A stretch of DNA of 64,000 bases from Minisyncoccota bacterium (lineage in GTDB: Bacteria; Patescibacteriota; Minisyncoccia; Phycocordibacterales; SBAW01), in contig DASZWM010000003.1 of NCBI GenBank assembly GCA_035546615.1, positions 1 to 64,000 of the forward strand, written 5' to 3'. The notes under the pieces are model-generated. The model did no database searches. It was given only the letters and a program-made list of their open reading frames with translations, and had not been told where the DNA came from. This document shows, in pieces, positions 31,592 through 60,642 of this stretch. The first letter of the stretch is position 1. Each line of letters starts with the position of its first letter. The position numbers were made by a program, and so were the translations under genes.

Positions 31592-31892
31592 CCTAGCGCA
31601 TTGAGCAGCAGCTCCGGCCGCAAGGCGGGAGAGGAAAGTCCGAACACTTCGCGCGGCAGCGATGCCGCGCAACGGTAGCAGGTAACGCCTGTCGTTTGCT
31701 TCTGGCGGGCAAAAGGGGTGCGAACAGTGACGAACCGGTTAAGTCCGGGTGAAACGGCTAAATCCCTATCGGAGTGCAAGGCCGTGCCTGAGGGGCAACC
31801 CTTGGGAGTGCCGCTTGAGGCCGCGGGCGACCGCGGTCCCAGATAAATTGCCGCTCAAGACAGAATTCGGCTTACAGATGCGCGCGCTAGAT
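31592..31892 (+). ncRNA. rnpB: RNase P RNA (bacterial type, compact)
   Basis: P4 strands 'GAGAGGAAAGTCCGAACAC' and 'ACAGAATTCGGCTTAC'. Also 'GCAGGTAACGCCTG' and 'GGGTGAAACGGCTAAATCCC'. Ends 'CTAGCGCA..TGCGCGCGCTAG' form P1. A 'TATAAT' at 31582-31587 lies just upstream. Confidence 0.8.
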
Positions 31893-39575: not shown

Positions 39576-41459
39576 ATGGAAGAAAGAAAGAAATCGTTTC
39601 CCCCGCGAAGCGGCGCGGGTGCAGCAGGCGGCGGCAGGCGCTCCGGCGGAGGCCGCCGCGGCTTCGGCGGCAAAGGCGGGCGTCCCCGCCAGGGCGGCCC
39701 CCGCCCGCACCAGGTGCATCCCCCGCGCGAGATAAAAGAAAGCTTCGCGTCCGGCAATCCGGCCGACCCGGTCATTCCGCCGCTTGAAGCCGGAAATATC
39801 CGCATCATTCCCCTGGGCGGCGTGGAGGAAATCGGCAAGAACATGACGGCGGTCGAATTCGGCGACGATATCCTTATCATCGACGCCGGCTTCCAGTTCC
39901 GCGAGGCCGACACCCCGGGCATCGACTATATCCTTCCCAACACCAAGTACCTGGAGGAGCGCAAGGACAAGATCCGCGGGCTTTTCATCACGCACGGCCA
40001 CCTCGACCACATCGGCGCCATCCCCTACATCATCGACCGCATCGGCTATCCGGAGATCTACACCCGCCGGCTCACCGCCATCATGATAAAGAAGCGCCAG
40101 GAGGAATTCCCCAACCTGAAGCCGGTCACCATACACGAGGTTGAAAAGGACGACACCGTAAAGGTCGGCGGCCTGCGCGTGCGCTTCTTCTCCGTCTATC
40201 ACACCATCCCCGACTCGATGGGCATCATCGTCGAGACGCCGTACGGCGACCTGGTCTTCACCGGCGACCTGCGCCTGGACCACGTCGACGGCGTGCCGAC
40301 CGAGACCGAAGAGAAGGAGTTCTCCTGGTTCGCCGACCGCAAGGTCCTCTTCCTCGCCGCAGACTCGACCAACTGCGAGCGCCCCGGCTTCTCGCTCCCC
40401 GAGCGCATCGTCAAGAAGAACCTCGACGAGATAATAGCCACCACCCCCGGCCGCCTCATCATCGGCACGTTCTCCAGCCAGCTCGAGCGCCTCATGCGCA
40501 TGATAGAGCAGGCCGAGAAGGTGGGCCGCAAGATACTGGTCGAGGGCCGCTCCATGAAGGTCAACATCGAGATTGTGAAGCACCTCGGCCTTCTTAAGGT
40601 GAACGAAAAGACGTTCATCGACGCCGCCCAGCTCGAAAGCCTCCCCGACAGCAAGGTGGCCATTCTCGCCACGGGCGCCCAGGGCGACGAGTTCGCCGCG
40701 CTCATGCGCATCGCTATGAAGACGCACAAGTACGTCAAGATAAAGAAGGGCGACACTGTCGTGCTCTCCTCCTCCATCGTGCCGGGCAACGAGCGAAGCG
40801 TGCAGAAGCTCAAGGACAATCTTTCCCGCCAGGGCGCGCGCATCATCCATCGCGACACCATGGACGTTCACGCCTCGGGCCACGCCAACCGCGACGAGAC
40901 CTTCTGGATACATCAGAAGATAAACCCGCGCTTCTTCATGCCCATGCACGGCTACCACTACATGCTGCGCGTCCATGCCGACATCGCCAAGGCCTGCGGC
41001 CGCAGCGAGGACGAGGTGGTCATCCCCGACAACGGCTCCGTCATCGAGATCCGCGATGAAGGCCAGAGGATAGTCCGCCTCAAGGAGAGCGCGCCCAATT
41101 CCCTGCGCCTCGTGGACGGCTTCGCGATCGGCGACATCCAGGAAGTCGTTATCCGCGACCGCAACGTCTTGGCGGCCGAAGGCATGTTCGTCATCATCGC
41201 CACGGTCAACCCCAAGAACGGCCGCCTGCGCAAATCGCCCGACATCATCTCCCGCGGCTTCGTGTACCTGCGCGAATCGCAGGAACTGCTCCAGCAGGCG
41301 CGCATCATCGTTAAAAAGACGATCGAGGACACGGCAGCCGGCCAGCAGCCCGTCAACTTCGACATGGTCAAGAACAACGTTACCGACGCGGTAGCGAAGT
41401 TCCTCTTCGAAAAAACAAACAAGCGCCCCATCGTCATCCCCGTAGTGCTGGGAGTATAA
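39576..41459 (+). CDS. rnj: ribonuclease J (metallo-beta-lactamase/beta-CASP) with RGG-rich N-terminal tail
   Basis: 'IIPLGGVEEIGKNMTAVEF..ILIIDAGFQF' and 'ITHGHLDHIGAIPY' (HxHxDH), followed by beta-CASP and C-terminal domains. The first ~60 aa are Arg/Gly-rich. Confidence 0.9.
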   Translation: MEERKKSFPPRSGAGAAGGGRRSGGGRRGFGGKGGRPRQGGPRPHQVHPPREIKESFASGNPADPVIPPLEAGNIRIIPLGGVEEIGKNMTAVEFGDDILIIDAGFQFREADTPGIDYILPNTKYLEERKDKIRGLFITHGHLDHIGAIPYIIDRIGYPEIYTRRLTAIMIKKRQEEFPNLKPVTIHEVEKDDTVKVGGLRVRFFSVYHTIPDSMGIIVETPYGDLVFTGDLRLDHVDGVPTETEEKEFSWFADRKVLFLAADSTNCERPGFSLPERIVKKNLDEIIATTPGRLIIGTFSSQLERLMRMIEQAEKVGRKILVEGRSMKVNIEIVKHLGLLKVNEKTFIDAAQLESLPDSKVAILATGAQGDEFAALMRIAMKTHKYVKIKKGDTVVLSSSIVPGNERSVQKLKDNLSRQGARIIHRDTMDVHASGHANRDETFWIHQKINPRFFMPMHGYHYMLRVHADIAKACGRSEDEVVIPDNGSVIEIRDEGQRIVRLKESAPNSLRLVDGFAIGDIQEVVIRDRNVLAAEGMFVIIATVNPKNGRLRKSPDIISRGFVYLRESQELLQQARIIVKKTIEDTAAGQQPVNFDMVKNNVTDAVAKFLFEKTNKRPIVIPVVLGV

Positions 41460-41467
41460 AATCCTAC

Positions 41468-41496
41468 TTGACTTTTTAGTCGAATAGGTATATAAT
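41468..41496 (+). promoter_or_regulatory. consensus sigma70-type promoter (TTGACT-17-TATAAT)
   Basis: TTGACT at 41468-41473, a 17-nt spacer and TATAAT at 41491-41496. No plus-strand CDS follows it. Confidence 0.5.
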
Positions 41497-41502
41497 AGAT
41501 TA

Positions 41503-41608
41503 AGTACGTGCGGGTGCCTGACAGCCCTGCACGAGGACTGGGGCCTTCCAGTGGCTCCTCCAGTCCGAAAAGGCGTACGCGGGTAACTCTGCGTACGTCT
41601 TTTTCTTT
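41503..41608 (+). ncRNA. candidate small RNA (~105 nt) of unknown family, promoter plus intrinsic terminator
   Basis: Transcript predicted from the promoter above. It ends at hairpin 'GGCGTACGCGGGTAACTCTGCGTACGTC' plus 'TTTTTCTTTT'. Internal stems 'GGACTGG..CCAGTCC' and 'GTGC..GCAC'. Confidence 0.35.
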
Positions 41609-41609
41609 T

Positions 41610-42398
41610 CTAATCCAAAATCCTGAAGCGGCGGTTTTTCGCGGCTATCAGCCCTTCCTTCGCCAAGACCGCGACTATCGGAGCCAGGTCCTTGGAGCTG
41701 CGGCCGGTTGCGTCTATCAGCTCGTCGAATGTTTTGGGCATTTTGAGTAGCTCGCGCAGTATCAGGCCGCGTACCTGGCGGTAGGAGCCCTCGAATTTGC
41801 TCTGCTTCGTATAGTGCTTGCTTCTGCTGTTGAGCTTAATTCCCTTCTGCTTCAGGTACGAGCCGTAGTCCATGAGCGCGGCGTAGAAGTCGCGGGGCTC
41901 CATGCCCGACTTCGTGAGCGCCTCTTTCACTTTCGGGAGTATTTCGATATCGGGAATAAGAGAGTCGCTTCGGCGCCTGAAAAGATAGTGGATGAACACG
42001 GTGCGGATGTTCGTCTCTATAAATACGCTTGGCTTGTTATGGGCGAACGCCTCCACCGCGGCGGCGGTGTACGAACCGACGCCCGGAAGCTTGCCGCCGG
42101 TCCAGCCTTCCCGGGCGATTATCTTCGCGGCCTCGTGGAGATACTTCGCGCGGCGGTTGTAGCCCAGCCCCTGCCAAAGCGCCAGCACTTCGGAGAGCTT
42201 TGCTTTTGCGAGCCTCTGCGCGGTCGGGAACTTCCGTATGAACGTCTCGTACTTCGGCACTACCCTATCCACCTGCGTCTGCTGGAGCATCACTTCCGAC
42301 ACCAGTACTCCATACGGGTCATGCGTGTGGCGCCACGGCAGGTGTCCCCTTCCTCGGGTTTTATAAAAGCTTTTGAGGTCGCGCAGCAGCTTCGGCAT
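41610..42398 (-). CDS. HhH-GPD base-excision DNA glycosylase (MutY/Nth-like, no obvious Fe-S Cys cluster)
   Basis: 'VSEVMLQQTQVDRVVPKYETFIRKFPT' and the helix-hairpin-helix 'LPGVGSYTAAAVEAFAH'. The C-terminus lacks a C-x6-C-x2-C-x5-C motif. Confidence 0.6.
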   Translation of the reverse strand: MPKLLRDLKSFYKTRGRGHLPWRHTHDPYGVLVSEVMLQQTQVDRVVPKYETFIRKFPTAQRLAKAKLSEVLALWQGLGYNRRAKYLHEAAKIIAREGWTGGKLPGVGSYTAAAVEAFAHNKPSVFIETNIRTVFIHYLFRRRSDSLIPDIEILPKVKEALTKSGMEPRDFYAALMDYGSYLKQKGIKLNSRSKHYTKQSKFEGSYRQVRGLILRELLKMPKTFDELIDATGRSSKDLAPIVAVLAKEGLIAAKNRRFRILD

Positions 42399-42458: not shown

Positions 42459-42710
42459 TTAGGCCTTCGGGCGGGCATCGGAGACCGTGAGCGTGCGGCC
42501 GTCGAAGTCCTTGCCATTCCACATGGAAATGGCGGCATCGGCGCCTGCATCATCGGCCATCTCCACGAAGCCGAAGCCACGAGAGCGACCGGTCTCACGA
42601 TCGGTGACGATGGACGCGGTGGCTACCTCTCCCGCCTTGGCGAACGCGTCTTTCAACTCGTCGCCCGTAGTGCGGTACGGAAGGCCTCCCACGAACAGTT
42701 TGCGTACCAT
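42459..42710 (-). CDS. RRM-domain RNA-binding protein
   Basis: 'KLFVGGLPYRTTGDELKDAFAKAGEV..RGFGFVEM' carries the RNP2 and RNP1 motifs. Confidence 0.8.
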   Translation of the reverse strand: MVRKLFVGGLPYRTTGDELKDAFAKAGEVATASIVTDRETGRSRGFGFVEMADDAGADAAISMWNGKDFDGRTLTVSDARPKA

Positions 42711-42851
42711 ATTCGCGAAATACAATGAAGTTTACTAAGTTCCTTGTAAGACGACCCTCCGATACCGCAAAACGGCACACTGGAGAACTTACTGTAGAAC
42801 GCCCTCAAAGTAGCATAGGGCGGAGAGCGGCGCAATGCCGCCTGAAAGCCG

Positions 42852-54141: not shown

Positions 54142-54540
54142 CTACAAAATTGAGATAACTTTCTTAACGACGGAGTCTGAAGCACTCTTGAGTCGATGTT
54201 CCCATATTCTTAATACCTTCCAATTCATACTTTTTAATTGTTTATTAACCAATCTATCTCTTTTCTTATTTCTTTCTATTTTGTTAGTCCAATATGCGCG
54301 ATTTGTCTTTGGAACTCTACAGTGAGTCTTACATCCGTGCCAAAAACAAGAGTCAATGAAAATTGCTGTCTTAGAAACAGAAAAAACAATATCAGGTCTG
54401 CCTGGCAATTTTGCCACATGAGTTGTAAACTTTAGTTTACTTTTTTTCAGTTGCTTCTGAAAAGATTTTTCTATACCTGAATTTCTACTCTTAATGAGAC
54501 GCATTATTTCGCTGCGTCTTCCAGAAGATACATTGTCCAT
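54142..54540 (-). CDS. vsr: very-short-patch-repair endonuclease Vsr
   Basis: 'IVFSVSKTAIFIDSCFWHGC..PKTNRAYWTNKIERNKKRD' is the Vsr signature. Confidence 0.85.
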   Translation of the reverse strand: MDNVSSGRRSEIMRLIKSRNSGIEKSFQKQLKKSKLKFTTHVAKLPGRPDIVFSVSKTAIFIDSCFWHGCKTHCRVPKTNRAYWTNKIERNKKRDRLVNKQLKSMNWKVLRIWEHRLKSASDSVVKKVISIL

Positions 54541-54544
54541 GCCT

Positions 54545-55612
54545 TTATTCTTCTATATCCCAACCTGTTGGAAGTGTGATTTTGGTATAGGCTCTTTCTT
54601 TGATAAAAGGGACAATCTCTGCGCTCGAAGGAAACTCTGCGTCAAATTCTCTCGTTAAATCACTTAACAAAGTGCCAGCAAGTCGTTCTCTATATTCTTT
54701 ACTGAGGCAAAGAGTATACCAGTCATGCAAATCTTTAAGAGTAATTATTCCTTGCACACGCTCAATAATCCCGAGCTGTTGTAGCAGGGCCTCAATAGGT
54801 TTCTTTTCTGCGTCTCGACAAACAATTACAATCCTGTCCGCTTCGATTCCCTCGACAATTCCTTCGGTTACTTCAGGAGTAAGTGTAAGGTGTTTTACCT
54901 GGATAGCTGTTCCAAAATTTGCCCACATATCTAATCCCCTATCCGCCGCATTCGTTACGCCAACTCTAAAAAGGGCTGCGGGCATAGCTACTTGAGTCTT
55001 TCTGGCATCTATGCCTAAAACCATTTTTATAAAACCTTCAAAATCAGTAAGTATTTCTTTGTCTTCATTTTTAATCGAAAGGGTGATTTCCGCTTTTAAT
55101 GCTCGTACAATAGCGGAAAAAAGAGCATGCACTGCTATTTCATATATTTTATCTGTGCTTCGTCTCAAGCCAGGACTTGATGTAAAAAGTTCCACTAATT
55201 CCATTATGGAAAAAGTGTCCACTGTTGACTGTTCGATATAGTCTCTTACCCGATGAACAGATAGTAACTTATTTTGTAAAGCTTTATAAATATAAGCCTC
55301 TACTCCGCCCTTACTTGTTGTATTTATTTTTCCTAACACTGCCAATAGTTGGGGCGGCATAGCATTAGGCTCAAAGATATTATCTTGGTACTTTGCGCTA
55401 GAAGTACTGCTCCTCCCAACAAGTAAGGTGGAGACTTCATCTCTCCAACGTTTAGAGACAGAGCGATAACTTTCTAGATCAGTTAGTTCTAGCTTTTTCT
55501 TAGTTCTATGATAGAAAAGTATCTCCGCTATCTGTATAGGTTTATAGAAGTGCACTCTGGCCTTCTTTATAACTGAATCCAGAGCCGCTTTTGCTTCTTC
55601 AGCCATTGACAT
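54545..55612 (-). CDS. putative type II restriction endonuclease (partner of adjacent C5-MTase)
   Basis: 355 aa, AT-rich. It overlaps the methyltransferase gene by 14 bp and sits upstream of vsr. No family assignment possible by eye. Confidence 0.4.
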   Translation of the reverse strand: MSMAEEAKAALDSVIKKARVHFYKPIQIAEILFYHRTKKKLELTDLESYRSVSKRWRDEVSTLLVGRSSTSSAKYQDNIFEPNAMPPQLLAVLGKINTTSKGGVEAYIYKALQNKLLSVHRVRDYIEQSTVDTFSIMELVELFTSSPGLRRSTDKIYEIAVHALFSAIVRALKAEITLSIKNEDKEILTDFEGFIKMVLGIDARKTQVAMPAALFRVGVTNAADRGLDMWANFGTAIQVKHLTLTPEVTEGIVEGIEADRIVIVCRDAEKKPIEALLQQLGIIERVQGIITLKDLHDWYTLCLSKEYRERLAGTLLSDLTREFDAEFPSSAEIVPFIKERAYTKITLPTGWDIEE

Positions 55613-56621
55613 ACGCCCGTTCTACCATATTTATGTCTTTTCCGCTAAACAATTCAGTTTGTTCAATAAAAGGAACCGGGTCTTTCGACATTGCTTCAAC
55701 CATTGCGTGGGCCACTGCTTCCATCTGAGGAACCACTACAGCATTACCAGCTTGCTTCCGGATTTGCTGGTCAGCAACAACAAATTTATATGAATCGGGA
55801 AAACCCTGTAATCTAAACATCTCTCTAGGAGTCAGTCTTCTTTCTCCATTTACAATAAGATAGTTATATGAACCATTAGCCCTAAGAGCGCATGAATAAG
55901 CATTCACGCCTAGGTTTCCAGACTTATTTTCGTGCAAGATTAACGGACGAGAATGAAGTTCTTTGTGTTGTTCTTTTAATTGTCTCTGGACTTTCTGCAA
56001 CATATAATCGCTAAGAAAGTGTTTTTTATCGACCTCATTATCAGGCTCAAGGATGTCTTCAAGAGTTTTCTTTTTTCCCCTCCCTTTGGTAGGAAATTCA
56101 AAAGGGTAGTTTTCTCTAAAACCTACAATCATTATTCGCTCTCTCTTTTGCGGAACGCCAAAATCTAGACCATTTAAAACTTTAAAGTGCACAAAATAAC
56201 CTAGTTTTCTTAAACTATTTAGAATTACTGAAAACGTCCTTCCTTGATCATGATTGGTAAGTTGTTTTACATTTTCCAAAAATAGAGCTTTTGGTTTCTT
56301 TGCCTTTAGAATTCTCTCAACATCAAAAAACAACGTGCCTCTTGTTTCAGAGAAACCTTTCATATTCCCCATGATGCTAAAAGCTTGGCATGGAAAACCG
56401 CCTGTCAAAATATCATGGTCAGGCACATCTTTTGCAACTATTTTCGTTATATCTCCATCTGGCTGGTCGCCGAAATGATTCTTATACATCTTCTGCGCAG
56501 CTTCATCCCATTCTGATGTAAAAACACATTTACCTCCTGCCGCTTCAAAACCAAGTCTAATGCCTCCAATTCCTGCAAAGAGATCGATAAAAGTAAATTT
56601 ATTCTTATTCGTTGGAGCCAT
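55599..56621 (-). CDS. DNA (cytosine-5)-methyltransferase
   Basis: Motif I 'FIDLFAGIGGIRLGFE', motif IV 'GGFPCQAFS', motif VI 'ENVKQL'. C-terminal target-recognition region. Confidence 0.9.
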   Translation of the reverse strand: MAPTNKNKFTFIDLFAGIGGIRLGFEAAGGKCVFTSEWDEAAQKMYKNHFGDQPDGDITKIVAKDVPDHDILTGGFPCQAFSIMGNMKGFSETRGTLFFDVERILKAKKPKALFLENVKQLTNHDQGRTFSVILNSLRKLGYFVHFKVLNGLDFGVPQKRERIMIVGFRENYPFEFPTKGRGKKKTLEDILEPDNEVDKKHFLSDYMLQKVQRQLKEQHKELHSRPLILHENKSGNLGVNAYSCALRANGSYNYLIVNGERRLTPREMFRLQGFPDSYKFVVADQQIRKQAGNAVVVPQMEAVAHAMVEAMSKDPVPFIEQTELFSGKDINMVERAYVNG

Positions 56622-56690
56622 AGAGCAATATATTTTAACACCTATTTTAAGCTTGCTATATTTTTAATAATAGCACTGAAATCTATATTT

Positions 56691-56722
56691 ATACACAATA
56701 TACACAAGTCTTGGGGATAACT
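56691..56722. promoter_or_regulatory. second copy of the ATACACAA-tandem / TTGGGGATAAC element, upstream of the methyltransferase-RE-vsr operon
   Basis: 'ATACACAATATACACAAGTCTTGGGGATAAC', to compare with 49691-49722. Confidence 0.4.
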
Positions 56723-56851
56723 TTAGTGAGGGCCGTTTTTGGTCCAGGATAGCCGTATCCGCCAGCCGATAAAAATAGAGTAAGGGGGTAAAGATCAGCA
56801 ATCGTGGGATGAGCGTGTCTAATAGTCACCTAAGGATTTATAGCCATAAGG

Positions 56852-57193
56852 CTATTGTGGCAAACCCTTAATTTTGTTTCTGAAGAAATTAAATCGCATC
56901 TTAGCATAGTCCCAAAGAAAAGAGCAGAACGACTTATTTGGATGTCTTTTTATTTCACGCAAGTTCTCGAAAGCATAATTAAGTATATCTATAAATAATA
57001 ACCCTGGTACAACACCCAATGCGAATATATACCAATCAGAAAAACGTGTTTTTAACAAACTGTAAGTCGCATTTACTGCAATTCCAAGAACTACCGCAAG
57101 CGTCGCACCGAGTATCACAAATGCCCACTGTATTTGTAGACTTCTTTCCTCTTGTAAATCACCCTTGTTCATGGCGAATATATCTAATAACAA
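56852..57193 (-). CDS. 2-TM membrane protein (last gene of Ubl/E1 operon; candidate effector)
   Basis: '..IQWAFVILGATLAVVLGIAVNATY..WYIFALGVVPGLLFIDIL..'. AT-rich. Confidence 0.4.
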   Translation of the reverse strand: MLLDIFAMNKGDLQEERSLQIQWAFVILGATLAVVLGIAVNATYSLLKTRFSDWYIFALGVVPGLLFIDILNYAFENLREIKRHPNKSFCSFLWDYAKMRFNFFRNKIKGLPQ

Positions 57194-57201
57194 GTAAAAA
57201 A

Positions 57202-57618
57202 TTATTCGAAGAAGCTACGCAATTGGACTAATATCCAGTTTCCAAATCGTCGCCACCATGACAGGGAGGAATGAATAAAGTATGCATCCTTGATGGTATC
57301 GTCATATTCTCGCCCGTGGCGTATCTGTTCTCGAGTCATCTTCGACGCCCAAATCACTTGATTTTCAATAATCCAATAATGTGACTGACAAGGATGATTC
57401 CAGTTTCCTATTGAAGGACGTAGCGAGACCACCCCCTGCCAATCAACTAGCGTATATTCGGTCTTACGGAGAGGGGTAACGATTTTAGTGCCACAACTGC
57501 AACAGCACAAATGGCTCGCGGTTCCGAAACGTCGTGAGATATATAGAACACCACTCTCAAGCTCTCTTGGTATGAACTCAACATATTCAGGACGCACCAA
57601 CTCTGTCTTCATATACAA
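57202..57618 (-). CDS. Cys/His-rich 138-aa protein of unknown function (Ubl/E1 operon)
   Basis: 'ASHLCCCSCGTKIV', 'NHPCQSHYW'. No JAMM HxH motif. Overlaps the E1 gene by 10 bp. Confidence 0.4.
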   Translation of the reverse strand: MYMKTELVRPEYVEFIPRELESGVLYISRRFGTASHLCCCSCGTKIVTPLRKTEYTLVDWQGVVSLRPSIGNWNHPCQSHYWIIENQVIWASKMTREQIRHGREYDDTIKDAYFIHSSLSWWRRFGNWILVQLRSFFE

Positions 57619-58808
57619 TCCTCTTTTGTAAGGGCGTGGGTCGCAATCGTGTACAGCGAATGACGTTCTCGCACATCATCAGCATAAAAACCACACAATT
57701 GCTTCCATTTTCCCACAGCCATGGCAGCATTTAGCATATTTAGGTCCGCAACCTGCATATTACGGTACACCGCCTCGGCCGGCACTTTTGCAAATGAAAC
57801 AACTTCCGCAATATGTCCATGATGGTCGGGTGTTCCAACTGTAAAGCGACACTGTCCGCGCAGAGACGCCTGATTATCGAGTGCCAAGTCTATTCCAACG
57901 TCTATGAACGGCACACCAAGAGCAATAAGGCCATTAAGTATGTTCTTCCGGCTCTCTCCGTCGTCGATAGCAACAAACACGAAGTCGAACCCGGACAGCT
58001 CGTGGAGATGCGCGTCCTGGACATAGTAGGGATGACGCTTCAAGCCCTTGTGTATACGTTCGTATATACCACTGAACCAATCCACTTTTAGTGGATTGTT
58101 AAGCTCCTGCTTCATCGGAGCACCCGGTGCTCTAAACGCGTTGTGGAGTTCGAACGTATCCCCATCGAAAATGTGGATTTCTTTCACCGGCGTCTTAGCA
58201 ACAAGGTCGAGAATATACGAACCAGTACCACCTAGTCCTATAATCGCCACCCGACTTGCAAGGAGTTTCGCCGTGGCCGCTCCAATACCAGCACGGGTTG
58301 TTGCCATATCAGGATAATGGAATGCGAGTTCCTGAGCTTCGACTACCGCCGGTACTGGTTTTTCACTTCGTGGATCGCAAGTCCGATCAATTGCTTGAGC
58401 TTCGTGCCAAATCAGACGAACATATGTCCAGATTTTTTCGTAGTAGTCGGCATACTTGCGCTTATCAGCGTGCACACGCGAGAAGGCGACAGTCGTCTTA
58501 ATCCCATCGCCCTTATCCTCCTCAGCGTTGTTCGAAATCATCTCCGTCATTAGTTGACCATCCGCGTTGTGCGGGGGTTCTCCAATCCACCAACACTGAT
58601 GGTTGGAACATGGATTCACTGTCTTTCCGGCCGCATCAATTTCAAGTGGGCAATAGAGAATTCCAGGCACTATTTTGCCTTCAGAGGTAACAGCAGGAAT
58701 TCCCTCAATTAAAAGATGAGAGGCAGTCCCTTGAATGACCCGGAGACGAAAACCTTCCGCCTCCAACTTTGCCAAATCGGCATTATGACTTATCCGTATT
58801 TCTGACAT
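57609..58808 (-). CDS. E1-like (ThiF/MoeB family) adenylyltransferase with ~170-aa N-terminal extra domain (possible E2-like)
   Basis: Rossmann 'VAIIGLGGTGSYILDLVAKTPVKEIHIFDGDTFELHNAFR', a C-terminal Cys/His region 'GTPDHHGH', and an N-terminal Cys-containing domain of unknown fold. Confidence 0.65.
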   Translation of the reverse strand: MSEIRISHNADLAKLEAEGFRLRVIQGTASHLLIEGIPAVTSEGKIVPGILYCPLEIDAAGKTVNPCSNHQCWWIGEPPHNADGQLMTEMISNNAEEDKGDGIKTTVAFSRVHADKRKYADYYEKIWTYVRLIWHEAQAIDRTCDPRSEKPVPAVVEAQELAFHYPDMATTRAGIGAATAKLLASRVAIIGLGGTGSYILDLVAKTPVKEIHIFDGDTFELHNAFRAPGAPMKQELNNPLKVDWFSGIYERIHKGLKRHPYYVQDAHLHELSGFDFVFVAIDDGESRKNILNGLIALGVPFIDVGIDLALDNQASLRGQCRFTVGTPDHHGHIAEVVSFAKVPAEAVYRNMQVADLNMLNAAMAVGKWKQLCGFYADDVRERHSLYTIATHALTKEDCI

Positions 58809-59040
58809 CGAAGTTCATATGATCGACCACATCTACACTTTGGCCCCGGCGAAGCGATCCTTCGTGTCCACCTGGCTTAGTCCATGAAACGCTGTAGCGA
58901 ACATCGCCTCCGAACGGACCAGTTGGGAATGCGAGCTTGATGACTTGCTCGTAGCTAATATCGTGTTCACCCCACTTCTCTTGAATACCGTTCACAACAA
59001 TGCTTATGGTGTGTCCATGCCCTTTATTATCGTCTGCCAT
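58783..59040 (-). CDS. ubiquitin-like beta-grasp protein (multiubiquitin-domain-like), first gene of operon
   Basis: An 85-aa protein with 'HTISIVVNGIQEKWGEHDISYEQVIKLAF..YSVSWTKPGGHEGSLRRGQSVDVVDHMNFDV'. It is translationally coupled to the E1 gene. There is no C-terminal GG. Confidence 0.4.
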   Translation of the reverse strand: MADDNKGHGHTISIVVNGIQEKWGEHDISYEQVIKLAFPTGPFGGDVRYSVSWTKPGGHEGSLRRGQSVDVVDHMNFDVRNTDKS

Positions 59041-59224
59041 ATAATTTTAATTGTCGGCTTTTTAATTTAAGTGCGGCACCGGTCGACCGCACTTGTATCG
59101 TACACCCATTTCTGATACCCTTGCAAGGTAACTAGATGTATCAAATGTTACCTAAAGTACCATATTTGTTATATCTGATACCTGTTGTTACAACCTATAA
59201 CAAGTTACGCACAGATTTCAAATC

Positions 59225-59584
59225 ATGAGAAAATCATCCGCTACAATAAACAATGAAAGCAGATCCACAGAGCTTGAAATCCGGAAAGAGATTGGCAGAC
59301 GTATCGCTGAAATGCGTAGCAAACTGGGGCTTACAGCTCGCCTTGTTGCCAAAGAACTTCATGTCTCACGCGAAGCCATTACTCACATTGAAACAGGGCG
59401 AAACAATATATCTGCCGTATCGCTGTGGGAATTGGCGACTCTCTTCCATTGTGATATTGCTGATTTTTTCCCTGATATTCCTAATGGATATTCTTTAACT
59501 AGGGTCGATATTAATAAAGTAGCACAAATGAGTGGAAAGACAGGGGCGGCATGGGCTGAAAAGATTTTTGGGAAAAAGAAATAA
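59225..59584 (+). CDS. XRE-family HTH transcriptional regulator
   Basis: 'IGRRIAEMRSKLGLTARLVAKELHVSREAITHIETGRNNISAVSLWELATLF'. Confidence 0.8.
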   Translation: MRKSSATINNESRSTELEIRKEIGRRIAEMRSKLGLTARLVAKELHVSREAITHIETGRNNISAVSLWELATLFHCDIADFFPDIPNGYSLTRVDINKVAQMSGKTGAAWAEKIFGKKK

Positions 59585-59588
59585 ATAT

Positions 59589-60083
59589 ATGATGTCAGAA
59601 AGAATTGAGAAAAAAGCGGAGGAAGTCTTAAGCGCACTGAATGTTAAGTCAATACCTATCTCTGTTGAAGAAATCGCGAATCAATTAAAGATCAAGATAG
59701 GAAGAGCACCTAGTAGTGAATTTTCTGGAATGTTGATTCGAAAAGATGGTCGAGCACTTATGGGTATAAATAACAGTGAAGGCACTGCGAGACAACGATT
59801 CACTATTGCGCATGAACTTGGGCATTATTTCTTACATCCACAAAATGATACTTTTGTAGACTATAGGCAGAACGAAAAAGAACCAAGAAATCATAGAGAA
59901 CGAGAGGCTGATATGTTTGCAGCAGCACTCTTAATGCCTAGGAAAGAAGTAACAAAAGACTTTCAGAAAATTGTTAGGAAAGGATTTTCAGAAATTGAAC
60001 TTCACAAACTGGCAGGAAAATATGAAGTGAGCGACAAAGCAATGAGATTTAGGTTAGTAAACTTAAATATGCTATTAGGTTAA
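59589..60083 (+). CDS. ImmA/IrrE-family zinc metallopeptidase
   Basis: 'FTIAHELGHYFLH' (HExxH) and 'EREADMFAAALLMP' downstream. Starts 5 nt after the XRE stop. Confidence 0.8.
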   Translation: MMSERIEKKAEEVLSALNVKSIPISVEEIANQLKIKIGRAPSSEFSGMLIRKDGRALMGINNSEGTARQRFTIAHELGHYFLHPQNDTFVDYRQNEKEPRNHREREADMFAAALLMPRKEVTKDFQKIVRKGFSEIELHKLAGKYEVSDKAMRFRLVNLNMLLG

Positions 60084-60087
60084 GATT

Positions 60088-60348
60088 TTATTGTCTACTC
60101 CCTTGTGATCCTAATCTATCCGTAAAAGGTCCCTCACGATGGGCCGCCGGATCTACATCCTTTTTTGTAATAACCTGGGGAAAGCGGGTATTTTCTTCAA
60201 TCTGCTCTAGTAACGTGACTATTCTGTTCAATTTCCAGTACCAGGTAAGGATTTCCCTGATCAGGAGGAATATCAGAGCGCCCACGCATAGGACAAAAAC
60301 GATATTTGGTAGCTGGGACCAGTAATATTGAAATAAGGGTTGAAGCAT
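60088..60348 (-). CDS. small TM protein, hypothetical (downstream of AbrB-like gene)
   Basis: 'WSQLPNIVFVLCVGALIFLLIREILTWYW' is a single TM segment. Confidence 0.3.
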   Translation of the reverse strand: MLQPLFQYYWSQLPNIVFVLCVGALIFLLIREILTWYWKLNRIVTLLEQIEENTRFPQVITKKDVDPAAHREGPFTDRLGSQGSRQ

Positions 60349-60351
60349 ATA

Positions 60352-60540
60352 TTACTTCTTCCAGTCGCGGATTATCAGCTTCTTTCTCTTCAGATCCACC
60401 TCTACGGTGAGCTTTTGGCGCTCTTTCCACTTGAACTTGCGGATAGCCTCCACCGGAAGCGCGACCGTATAGGTACTTCCCCGCCCCGTCTTGGTGAGCT
60501 TGCGGACCTGCTTTTTCTGCCCCGCCTTCGGCCGTGCCAT
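60352..60540 (-). CDS. AbrB/MazE/SpoVT-like DNA-binding protein
   Basis: 62 aa with 'KLTKTGRGSTYTVALPVEAIRKFKWKERQKLTVEV', a swapped-hairpin-like pattern. A 36-bp palindrome lies just upstream. Confidence 0.45.
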   Translation of the reverse strand: MARPKAGQKKQVRKLTKTGRGSTYTVALPVEAIRKFKWKERQKLTVEVDLKRKKLIIRDWKK

Positions 60541-60642
60541 GCGGATATGATACCACCGAACTCCTGAGCTAACTCAAGAGTTAGCTCAGGAGTTAATTAA
60601 AAACCGGCGCCTGGGGCGCCGGTTTGGCCAAGGTTGGCCGGA

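What the first reader, a model, noticed from the sequence alone, without database searches (positions are those of the whole stretch)
41468..41608. Orphan consensus promoter followed ~105 nt later by an intrinsic terminator: candidate sRNA
A textbook TTGACT-17-TATAAT promoter (41468-41496) on the plus strand is not followed by any plus-strand ORF. Instead a GC-rich, highly self-complementary ~105-nt segment ends in the hairpin GGCGTACGCGGGTAACTCTGCGTACGTC plus TTTTTCTTTT (41571-41608). Downstream genes are all on the minus strand. This is the signature of an independently transcribed small RNA. The hairpin may also double as the terminator of the convergent glycosylase gene.
Basis: seen in the sequence. 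Interest (0 to 1): 0.5.

Follow-up and report, generated by a model that had tools for sequence, protein, structure and literature searches.

The report
Orphan promoter-to-terminator small RNA unit
Between two convergent genes of an uncultivated Paceibacterota (candidate phyla radiation, CPR) bacterium lies a compact unit of a near-perfect promoter, about 105 nt of tightly folded non-coding sequence and a strong terminator; it looks like a small-RNA gene, but it has no relative anywhere and sits in a slot that carries a different small orphan gene in almost every related genome.

Summary
TTGACT-17-TATAAT lies at 41468-41496 (+). It is followed by about 105 nt with no credible ORF, folding into three hairpins (MFE -58.3 kcal/mol, z -6.4).

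An 11/12 promoter match is rare here: 0.2 expected per window, 2 seen. The other one drives groES.

The unit lies between RNase J (+) and an HhH-GPD glycosylase (-) in a Candidatus Paceibacterota/Adlerbacteria-like genome.

No Rfam family matches. I found no homologue in about 90 loci from relatives, two metagenome scans, viral contigs, phages or plasmids.

About 30 relatives keep the flanking synteny. In them the same slot is 0-2231 nt long and usually holds unrelated orphan small protein genes with their own expression signals.

Best reading: a lineage-specific short non-coding transcription unit, that is, a candidate sRNA that shares its terminator with the RNase J mRNA. Function is unproven. 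A leftover from cargo turnover at this slot is a serious rival.

Interest is modest.

The parts
39576..41459 (+). Upstream gene: ribonuclease J (627 aa). There is no terminator between its stop (41457-41459) and the promoter, so its mRNA must read into the unit.
   Evidence: Pfam RNase_J_b_CASP, RNase_J_C and Lactamase_B; 100% identical to a Candidatus Paceibacterota ribonuclease J; terminator scan
41468..41473 (+). -35 hexamer TTGACT
41491..41496 (+). -10 hexamer TATAAT (17-nt spacer, no TG extension)
41503..41608 (+). Predicted transcript of about 102-106 nt. The start is inferred at A41503/G41504, 7-8 nt after the -10; the 3' end is inferred within the U-tract.
   Evidence: Inference from promoter and terminator geometry; fold at -58.3 kcal/mol, z -6.4
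41507..41533 (+). Hairpin 1: 10 bp with one bulged U, loop CUGACA
   Evidence: MFE equals centroid; unpaired probabilities
41535..41566 (+). Hairpin 2: 11 bp, apical loop UUCCAGU within CCUUCC (41544-49), CCU bulge within CUCCUCC (41555-61). Both CU-rich motifs are complementary to GGAGG-type Shine-Dalgarno (SD) sequences.
   Evidence: the complementarity to SD sequences is read from the sequence and its function is inferred
41567..41604 (+). Terminator hairpin: 17 pairs including 4 G.U, loop UAAC. -23.2 kcal/mol on the plus strand against -14.0 on the minus strand.
41600..41609 (+). T-run TTTTTCTTTT; its first 5 T pair with the upstream GAAAA
41610..42398 (-). Convergent gene: HhH-GPD DNA glycosylase (262 aa). 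Its stop codon lies 1 nt after the T-run, and its C-terminus matches that of a relative (L083).
   Evidence: Pfam; alignment A1

Best explanation
This is a lineage-specific, independently transcribed, non-coding unit of about 105 nt, that is, a candidate small RNA gene.

Shown from sequence:
- a near-consensus sigma-70-type promoter 9 nt after the RNase J stop;
- no usable ORF;
- a body of two stable hairpins joined by single nucleotides;
- a strong plus-strand intrinsic terminator ending 1 nt before the stop codon of the convergent glycosylase gene.

Inferred: RNA polymerase starts at about 41503 and stops in the U-tract, giving an abundant, compact, nuclease-resistant RNA. RNase J has no terminator of its own, so the same 3' end also closes the RNase J mRNA. 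The same RNA could therefore also be released from that 3' UTR.

Most likely mode of action (inference only): base-pairing through the few accessible CU-rich segments, namely loop UUCCAGU within CCUUCC and the bulge within CUCCUCC. These are complementary to GGAGG ribosome-binding sites. The RNA could also pair with perfect complementarity to glycosylase transcripts that read past their weak minus-strand terminator.

The unit occupies a hypervariable slot between RNase J and the glycosylase. In relatives this slot holds unrelated orphan small protein genes, so the RNA is evolutionarily young or recently acquired.
For: - Promoter 11/12 with 17-nt spacer. Such matches are rare (0.2 expected per window, 2 observed; 16/20000 local shuffles). 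The only other one drives groES, so near-consensus sites do mark real strong promoters in this genome.
- Fold z -6.4 for the whole RNA and -3.2 for the body.
- The structure favours the plus strand: 6 of 38 pairs are G.U. Whole-RNA z on the minus strand is only -3.5, the body -2.0, and the terminator -14.0 against -23.2 kcal/mol.
- No ORF with an SD sequence.
- No terminator between RNase J and the promoter.
- In relatives the same slot carries expressed-looking units, several with a promoter right after the RNase J stop and most with a small ORF and a terminator. A transcription unit at this place is therefore the rule.
- An independent assembly confirms the sequence.
Against: - No homologue anywhere: Rfam; BLAST and a single-sequence covariance model over about 90 related loci; two exact-pattern metagenome scans; viral contigs (one chance 20-mer); phages and plasmids. 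Nothing therefore shows selection on the RNA.
- Very little of the RNA is single-stranded; the longest stretch is 7 nt.
- No target in the window stands out above shuffled controls.
- Promoters of known RNA genes in this window (RNase P RNA, most tRNAs) are of the extended -10 type TGnTAnAAT. This one is not.
- No expression data exist.
Confidence: 0.4

Rival explanations
1. Leftover of cargo turnover. The slot once held a small protein gene cassette, as in relatives. A deletion or replacement left its promoter and terminator around a short non-coding stretch. The RNA may be made but has no function.
For: Among about 30 relatives with the same flanking synteny the slot is 0-2231 nt long. Its cargo is unrelated small ORFs, and the one tested is an absolute orphan among 5.8 billion protein clusters. 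L013 carries a comparable ORF-poor unit: promoter, SD sequence, a 3-codon ORF and a terminator, which looks like a decayed gene. L089 keeps a duplicated remnant of the RNase J 3' end inside its slot, which shows recombinational replacement there. The window's element is not conserved.
Against: There is no trace of an SD sequence with a start codon, or of a truncated ORF, and blastx against the relatives' slot peptides finds nothing. The 64-nt body is not random spacer. It forms two stable hairpins with 1-nt linkers (z -3.2, better on the plus strand). The promoter is still near-perfect, which would not be expected after long neutral decay.
Confidence: 0.3
2. The region is simply the structured 3' UTR and terminator of RNase J, and a barrier between the convergent genes. 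The promoter-like hexamers are inactive or irrelevant.
For: RNase J has no other terminator, so its mRNA must end at 41604-41609. 3'-terminal hairpins protect mRNAs from exonucleases (general knowledge). The AT-rich 47 nt after the stop codon (26% GC) raise the chance of promoter-like matches somewhat.
Against: Even in shuffles of that AT-rich stretch, only 20/20000 give an 11/12 match. Relatives whose RNase J and glycosylase genes abut or overlap (L083, L087, L008, L012, L020) manage with no such 3' UTR at all. Promoters at the same position are common in relatives.
Confidence: 0.15
3. Dedicated cis-antisense or anti-collision element. The promoter fires towards the glycosylase gene and the strong terminator stops it. 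The RNA pairs with glycosylase transcripts that read through, or the unit limits their extension into RNase J.
For: Convergent arrangement, with the RNA's 3' end 1 nt from the glycosylase stop. The minus-strand version of the hairpin is weak and has only 4 U, so glycosylase read-through is likely.
Against: There is no overlap with the glycosylase coding region. Relatives with directly abutting genes need no such element. Nothing here is testable without transcript maps.
Confidence: 0.1
4. It encodes a peptide: either the 80-aa GTG frame 41508-41750, or an 11-codon GTG mini-ORF (41551-41586, MAPPVRKGVRG) whose stop lies in the terminator loop.
For: Both frames exist (mini-ORF read). GAGGA lies 12 nt upstream of the mini-ORF start.
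Against: The 80-aa frame has no SD sequence, GC3 of 0.53 against 0.87 for RNase J, runs through a strong terminator and antisense to a conserved gene, and has no Pfam hit. The mini-ORF start is buried in hairpin 2 and the SD spacing is poor.
Confidence: 0.03

Closest known systems
RsaE/RoxS-type sRNAs of Firmicutes (about 100 nt, C-rich unpaired motifs that pair with Shine-Dalgarno regions); comparison from my own knowledge
   Same: Size. Own promoter and intrinsic terminator. Multi-hairpin build. Pyrimidine-rich accessible motifs complementary to GGAGG.
   Different: No sequence or structure match (no Rfam hit at E<=10 in the region). Motifs are CCUUCC/CUCCUCC rather than CCCC. Not conserved in any relative, and targets are unknown.
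3'-UTR-embedded sRNAs with their own promoter that share the terminator of the upstream mRNA (DapZ, MicL type); from my own knowledge
   Same: The promoter sits at the very end of the upstream gene's transcription unit, and the terminator is shared with the RNase J mRNA.
   Different: The promoter lies just after the stop codon, not within the coding region. No Hfq context is known for this phylum, and there is no conservation.
GadY-like cis-encoded sRNAs opposite the 3' end of a convergent gene; from my own knowledge
   Same: A ~105-nt RNA encoded antisense to the likely 3' UTR of the convergent glycosylase gene.
   Different: Overlap depends on unproven glycosylase read-through, and there is none with the coding region.
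Orphan small-gene cassettes in the same RNase J-glycosylase slot of related Adlerbacteria/Paceibacterota genomes (L001-L022, L081-L091)
   Same: Same position. A promoter right after the RNase J stop in several of them. Own terminator before the glycosylase stop. Lineage-restricted.
   Different: Those carry an SD sequence plus an ORF of 44-151 aa, many with gene-like GC3. The window's unit has no ORF and is much shorter (150 nt).

Membership tests
Sigma-70-type promoter | -35 and -10 hexamers close to TTGACA/TATAAT with a 16-18 nt spacer, more than chance | tested here: met
   11/12, spacer 17. 0.2 expected against 2 observed per window; 16/20000 local shuffles. The other top site precedes groES.
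Sigma-70-type promoter | Mapped transcription start | not testable with these tools
   No transcript data; the start at 41503/41504 is inferred.
Intrinsic (Rho-independent) terminator | GC-rich stem-loop immediately followed by a U-tract on the transcribed strand | tested here: met
   17-pair stem, 4-nt loop, TTTTTCTTTT; -23.2 kcal/mol.
Bidirectional terminator (also serving the glycosylase) | Comparable hairpin and U-tract on the minus strand | tested here: inconclusive
   Minus-strand hairpin is -14.0 kcal/mol with C.A mismatches and is followed by CUUUUCGG, only 4 U. The scan does not call it.
Any described RNA family (Rfam 15, 4227 models) | Covariance-model score at or near the gathering threshold | tested here: not met
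   No hit at gathering threshold in the window other than RNase P RNA and tRNAs. In 41300-41800 at E<=10 there are only two chance hits, of which the one inside the element (ctRNA_p42d, 17 bits against a gathering score of 50) merely matches the terminator shape.
Conserved trans-acting base-pairing sRNA | Homologues in related genomes with conserved seed or compensatory changes | tested here: not met
   No BLAST or covariance-model match in about 90 related loci or in pattern scans. Caveat: only +/-2.5-4 kb around RNase J was searchable in relatives, and the pattern scans need exact matches.
Conserved trans-acting base-pairing sRNA | Accessible seed with targets better than chance | tested here: inconclusive
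   Unpaired stretches are at most 7 nt. The best complementarity in the 64-kb window (17 nt including G.U) is within the range of shuffled controls, 14-18. Only about 6% of a genome was available.
3'-UTR-embedded sRNA sharing the upstream gene's terminator | No terminator between the upstream stop codon and the sRNA promoter; a common 3' end | tested here: met
   RNase J stop at 41459 and -35 at 41468, with no hairpin or U-tract between them.
Riboswitch or attenuator leader | A co-directional regulated ORF downstream of the terminator | tested here: not met
   The next genes are all on the minus strand.
Small protein gene (as in relatives' slots) | SD sequence, start codon and ORF ending before the terminator | tested here: not met
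   No such ORF. The 80-aa frame has no SD sequence, passes through the terminator and has no Pfam hit.
MITE or small insertion element | Terminal inverted repeats, target-site duplication and multiple copies | tested here: not met
   An 8-bp direct repeat AAAATCCT flanks the unit. Its second copy encodes the conserved C-terminus of the glycosylase. There are no terminal inverted repeats and no other copy in the window.

The most novel reading that the evidence does not exclude
In Adlerbacteria-like CPR bacteria, the RNase J-glycosylase junction is a dedicated expression slot where cargo is replaced or born de novo at species-level rates. It has promoter and terminator signals between two conserved convergent genes. 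The window's ORF-less structured RNA would be one state in that cycle: a newborn sRNA or proto-gene, or a gene just lost. That would make the locus a natural series for studying de novo gene and sRNA birth in minimal genomes.
Probability: 0.2. Interest if true: 0.55.

Novelty: new member of a known kind. Interest (0 to 1): 0.3.

Why it matters
Regulatory RNAs of CPR/Patescibacteria are, as far as I know, essentially uncharted. These are tiny-genome, mostly uncultivated bacteria. A strongly promoted, compact sRNA next to the main RNA-decay enzyme, RNase J, would be a useful first handle.

As it stands, the element is a single-genome orphan. It has no conservation, no targets and no expression data, so its value is as a candidate.

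The more general point is the hypervariable slot around it. Unrelated orphan mini-genes sit between two conserved convergent genes, and one relative shows recombination scars. That bears on how small genes and RNAs turn over in streamlined genomes.

Tried and rejected
- Known RNA family: Rfam at gathering threshold on the whole window, and at E<=10 on 41300-41800. Nothing relevant.
- Syntenic homologues: BLASTN with word size 7 and a single-sequence covariance model (R1) over 80 RNase J loci, plus 10 loci of the closest relatives. Only terminator-shaped hits, best 21.6 bits.
- Homologues elsewhere: two exact-pattern scans of JGI metagenomes gave 0 hits. Two scans of IMG/VR gave one 20-mer inside a 1180-aa phage ORF with unrelated flanks, which I rejected as chance. 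Phage and plasmid blastn gave only a 30-nt AT-rich chance match.
- Strain variants: the identical glycosylase occurs on one short Logan contig that is 100% identical throughout, so it carries no divergence information. The RRM protein is not on record.
- Mobile element with a target-site duplication: rejected, because the second copy of AAAATCCT is conserved coding sequence and there are no terminal inverted repeats and no other copies.
- Remnant of a relative's small ORF: blastx of the slot against all slot peptides gave nothing.
- Units in L013 and L014 as known RNAs: no Rfam hit.
- Trans targets inside the window by duplex energy and longest complementarity: not above shuffled controls.
- Literature search for sRNAs in Patescibacteria: nothing relevant.

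Full report
**What is there**

The window comes from a Candidatus Paceibacterota (Adlerbacteria-like, CPR) genome. Its RNase J is 100% identical to a protein annotated as ribonuclease J of Candidatus Paceibacterota, and the nearest other sequences are only 87-91% identical.

RNase J (39576-41459, +) and an HhH-GPD DNA glycosylase (41610-42398, -) converge on a 150-nt spacer. Reading that spacer directly gives:
- TTGACT at 41468-41473, a 17-nt spacer, TATAAT at 41491-41496;
- a GC-rich stretch;
- the hairpin GGCGTACGCGGGTAACTCTGCGTACGTC at 41572-41599;
- TTTTTCTTTT at 41600-41609.

Everything else is as described. The consensus scan reports the same promoter (11/12) and a 17-pair terminator stem at 41567-41604.

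**Is it more than chance?**

Promoter:
- Across the whole window, both strands, only two sites reach 11/12. Markov-1 simulations of the window give 0.2 on average.
- Shuffling the 150-nt spacer gives such a site 16 times in 20000. Shuffling only its AT-rich first 47 nt gives 20 in 20000.
- The other 11/12 site (TTGACA-18-TATACT) lies about 40 nt upstream of groES. Near-consensus sites therefore do mark strong promoters in this organism.
- One caveat: the promoters in front of RNase P RNA and most tRNAs in the window are of the extended -10 type (TGnTAnAAT), which this one is not.

Structure:
- The predicted RNA (41503-41608) folds into three adjacent hairpins at -58.3 kcal/mol, against -35.6 +/- 3.6 for dinucleotide shuffles (z -6.4).
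- The two body hairpins alone give z -3.2.
- The fold favours the plus strand. Six of 38 pairs are G.U. The minus strand gives z -3.5 overall and -2.0 for the body. The terminator hairpin is -23.2 kcal/mol on the plus strand against -14.0 on the minus strand.

An independently assembled Logan contig (L086) is identical across both gene junctions. The arrangement is therefore not an assembly artefact.

**Coding potential**

The only ORF of >=20 aa touching the spacer is an 80-aa GTG frame. It has no Shine-Dalgarno (SD) ribosome-binding sequence, runs through the terminator and lies antisense to the glycosylase gene. Its GC3 is 0.53 against 0.87 for RNase J, and it has no Pfam hit.

An 11-codon GTG mini-ORF (41551-41586) ends in the terminator loop. 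Its start is buried in hairpin 2 and its SD spacing is poor. I treat the unit as non-coding.

**Known families and relatives**

Rfam finds RNase P RNA and seven tRNAs in the window but nothing here, even at E<=10.

I fetched 80 RNase J loci from species-representative genomes and ten more loci from the closest relatives. Neither BLASTN nor a covariance model built from the single sequence and its structure finds the RNA in any of them. The best hit is 21.6 bits, and the hits only match terminator shape.

The wider searches were also empty:
- two exact-pattern scans of JGI metagenomes returned nothing;
- one 20-mer hit in IMG/VR lies inside a large phage ORF with unrelated flanks and is chance;
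- the phage and plasmid collections hold nothing relevant.

These searches have limits. In relatives only a few kb around RNase J were visible, the pattern scans need exact matches, and no relative with RNase J more than 91% identical exists. Absence at the syntenic site is established. Absence elsewhere in those genomes is not.

**The slot**

The Adlerbacteria-like clade shares this gene order:

groEL/groES <- | -> secG, SBP_bac_5, RNase J -> [slot] <- glycosylase <- RRM protein <- sortase

The slot varies from nothing to 2231 nt. In L083, L087, L008, L012 and L020 the two genes abut or overlap.

Where it is occupied, it usually carries a small ORF of 44-151 aa. Several slots have a recognizable promoter, often starting within a few nucleotides of the RNase J stop. 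Most have an SD sequence and an intrinsic terminator.

These ORFs are unrelated to one another. Many have gene-like codon-position GC. The one from the closest relative has no homologue among 5.8 billion protein clusters.

Signs of turnover:
- L013 holds a promoter, an SD sequence, a three-codon ORF and a terminator, which looks like a decayed gene.
- L089 holds a second, degenerate copy of the RNase J 3' end (…RPIVI-VVLGV*) inside its slot, a recombination scar.

The window's unit is the only clearly ORF-free promoter-to-terminator unit I saw in this slot, and it is the shortest occupied state.

**How it most likely works**

Shown: a strong promoter, no ORF, two stable hairpins, a strong plus-strand terminator, and no separate terminator for RNase J.

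Inferred: a primary transcript of about 102-106 nt starting at A41503/G41504. The same terminator also ends the RNase J mRNA, so the RNA might also arise by processing of that 3' UTR.

Speculative: the accessible bases are few. They are AGUA at the 5' end, loop CUGACA, loop UUCCAGU, bulge CCU and loop UAAC. Two CU-rich motifs, CCUUCC at 41544-49 and CUCCUCC at 41555-61, are complementary to GGAGG-type ribosome-binding sites. That suggests translational repression in the manner of C-rich-loop sRNAs of Firmicutes.

Alternatively, the RNA is perfectly complementary to any glycosylase transcript that reads past its weak minus-strand hairpin.

A search for targets inside the window gave nothing above shuffled controls. 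That covers only a small part of a genome.

**Rivals**

1. The unit is debris of cargo turnover, with promoter and terminator left around a short spacer. This fits the slot's behaviour and the lack of conservation. It does not explain the near-perfect promoter or the compact plus-strand-biased structure.
2. It is merely the RNase J 3' UTR and terminator, with an accidental promoter. This is weakened by the promoter statistics and by relatives that have no such UTR.
3. It is a cis-antisense or anti-collision device for the convergent pair. This cannot be tested without transcript maps.
4. It encodes a peptide. This is unlikely.

**Comparison and novelty**

It works like a stand-alone sRNA, or a 3'-UTR-embedded one. 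It belongs to no described family. I file it as a new, unverified member of a known kind (candidate sRNA), not as something categorically new.

The surrounding slot, which carries a different orphan mini-gene in nearly every species, is arguably the more interesting observation.

**Verdict**

| Item | Result |
|---|---|
| Observation | confirmed |
| Confidence in a discrete, functional non-coding RNA | about 0.4 |
| Interest | 0.3 |

Noticed in passing
L001-L022, L081-L091: region between the RNase J stop and the glycosylase (or RRM gene) 3' end; window 41460-41609: The slot between two conserved convergent genes is hypervariable. It is 0-2231 nt long and holds mutually unrelated small ORFs (44-151 aa), usually with an SD sequence and a terminator and in several cases a recognizable promoter. 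The L081 ORF has no homologue among 5.8 billion protein clusters.
   Followed up: partly
L003, L006, L007, L015 (and probably L004), first ~70 nt after the RNase J stop: These loci appear to share a similar promoter region (GTTGTTAAA ... GGATGCGCTATAGT ... GCGCAGA; read by eye, not aligned). The small ORFs behind it look unrelated in sequence.
   Followed up: no
L089:4440-4475: Inside the slot there is a second, degenerate copy of the RNase J 3' end (…E G R P I V I V V L G V *), followed by its own terminator. This is a scar suggesting that slot cargo is replaced by recombination anchored in the RNase J 3' end.
   Followed up: partly
L013: about 45-195 nt after the RNase J stop (stop ends at 5887): TTGACA-16-TATACT promoter, AAGGAGGG SD sequence, ATG GAG GTG TAG (a 3-codon ORF), then a terminator. 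It looks like a decayed small gene or another ORF-poor RNA unit. No Rfam hit.
   Followed up: partly
window 41458-41465 and 41617-41624: An 8-bp direct repeat AAAATCCT exactly flanks the unit. The second copy encodes the conserved C-terminus (R-I-L) of the glycosylase, so I judge it coincidental rather than a target-site duplication.
   Followed up: yes
window 54142-60556: Low-GC3 island (about 0.3-0.45 against 0.75-0.9 elsewhere). It carries Vsr, a HaeII-type restriction endonuclease with a C5 cytosine methylase, a DUF6791-ThiF protein with DUF6527, and an HTH/IrrE-like M78 peptidase pair. It is probably a horizontally acquired defence island.
   Followed up: partly
window 31593-31890 (+): Shortened RNase P RNA (298 nt against a 367-position model; 105 bits, just above the gathering score of 100), with an extended -10 promoter (TGGTATAAT) and a terminator with a short U-tract. 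Most tRNA genes in the window also use TGnTAnAAT promoters.
   Followed up: partly
window 39576-39760 (RNase J residues 1-60): RNase J carries an N-terminal Arg/Gly-rich, low-complexity extension (…GGGRRSGGGRRGFGGKGGRPRQGG…). It is not covered by the Pfam domain matches and was left unaligned in many of the homologue comparisons.
   Followed up: no
window 41551-41586 (+): An 11-codon GTG mini-ORF (MAPPVRKGVRG) has its stop codon in the loop of the terminator hairpin. If it were translated, the ribosome would open the terminator's 5' arm. Probably coincidental.
   Followed up: no
window 42459-42725 (-): An 88-aa single-RRM RNA-binding protein is encoded two genes downstream and is syntenic in the whole clade. 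No link to the RNA was tested.
   Followed up: no
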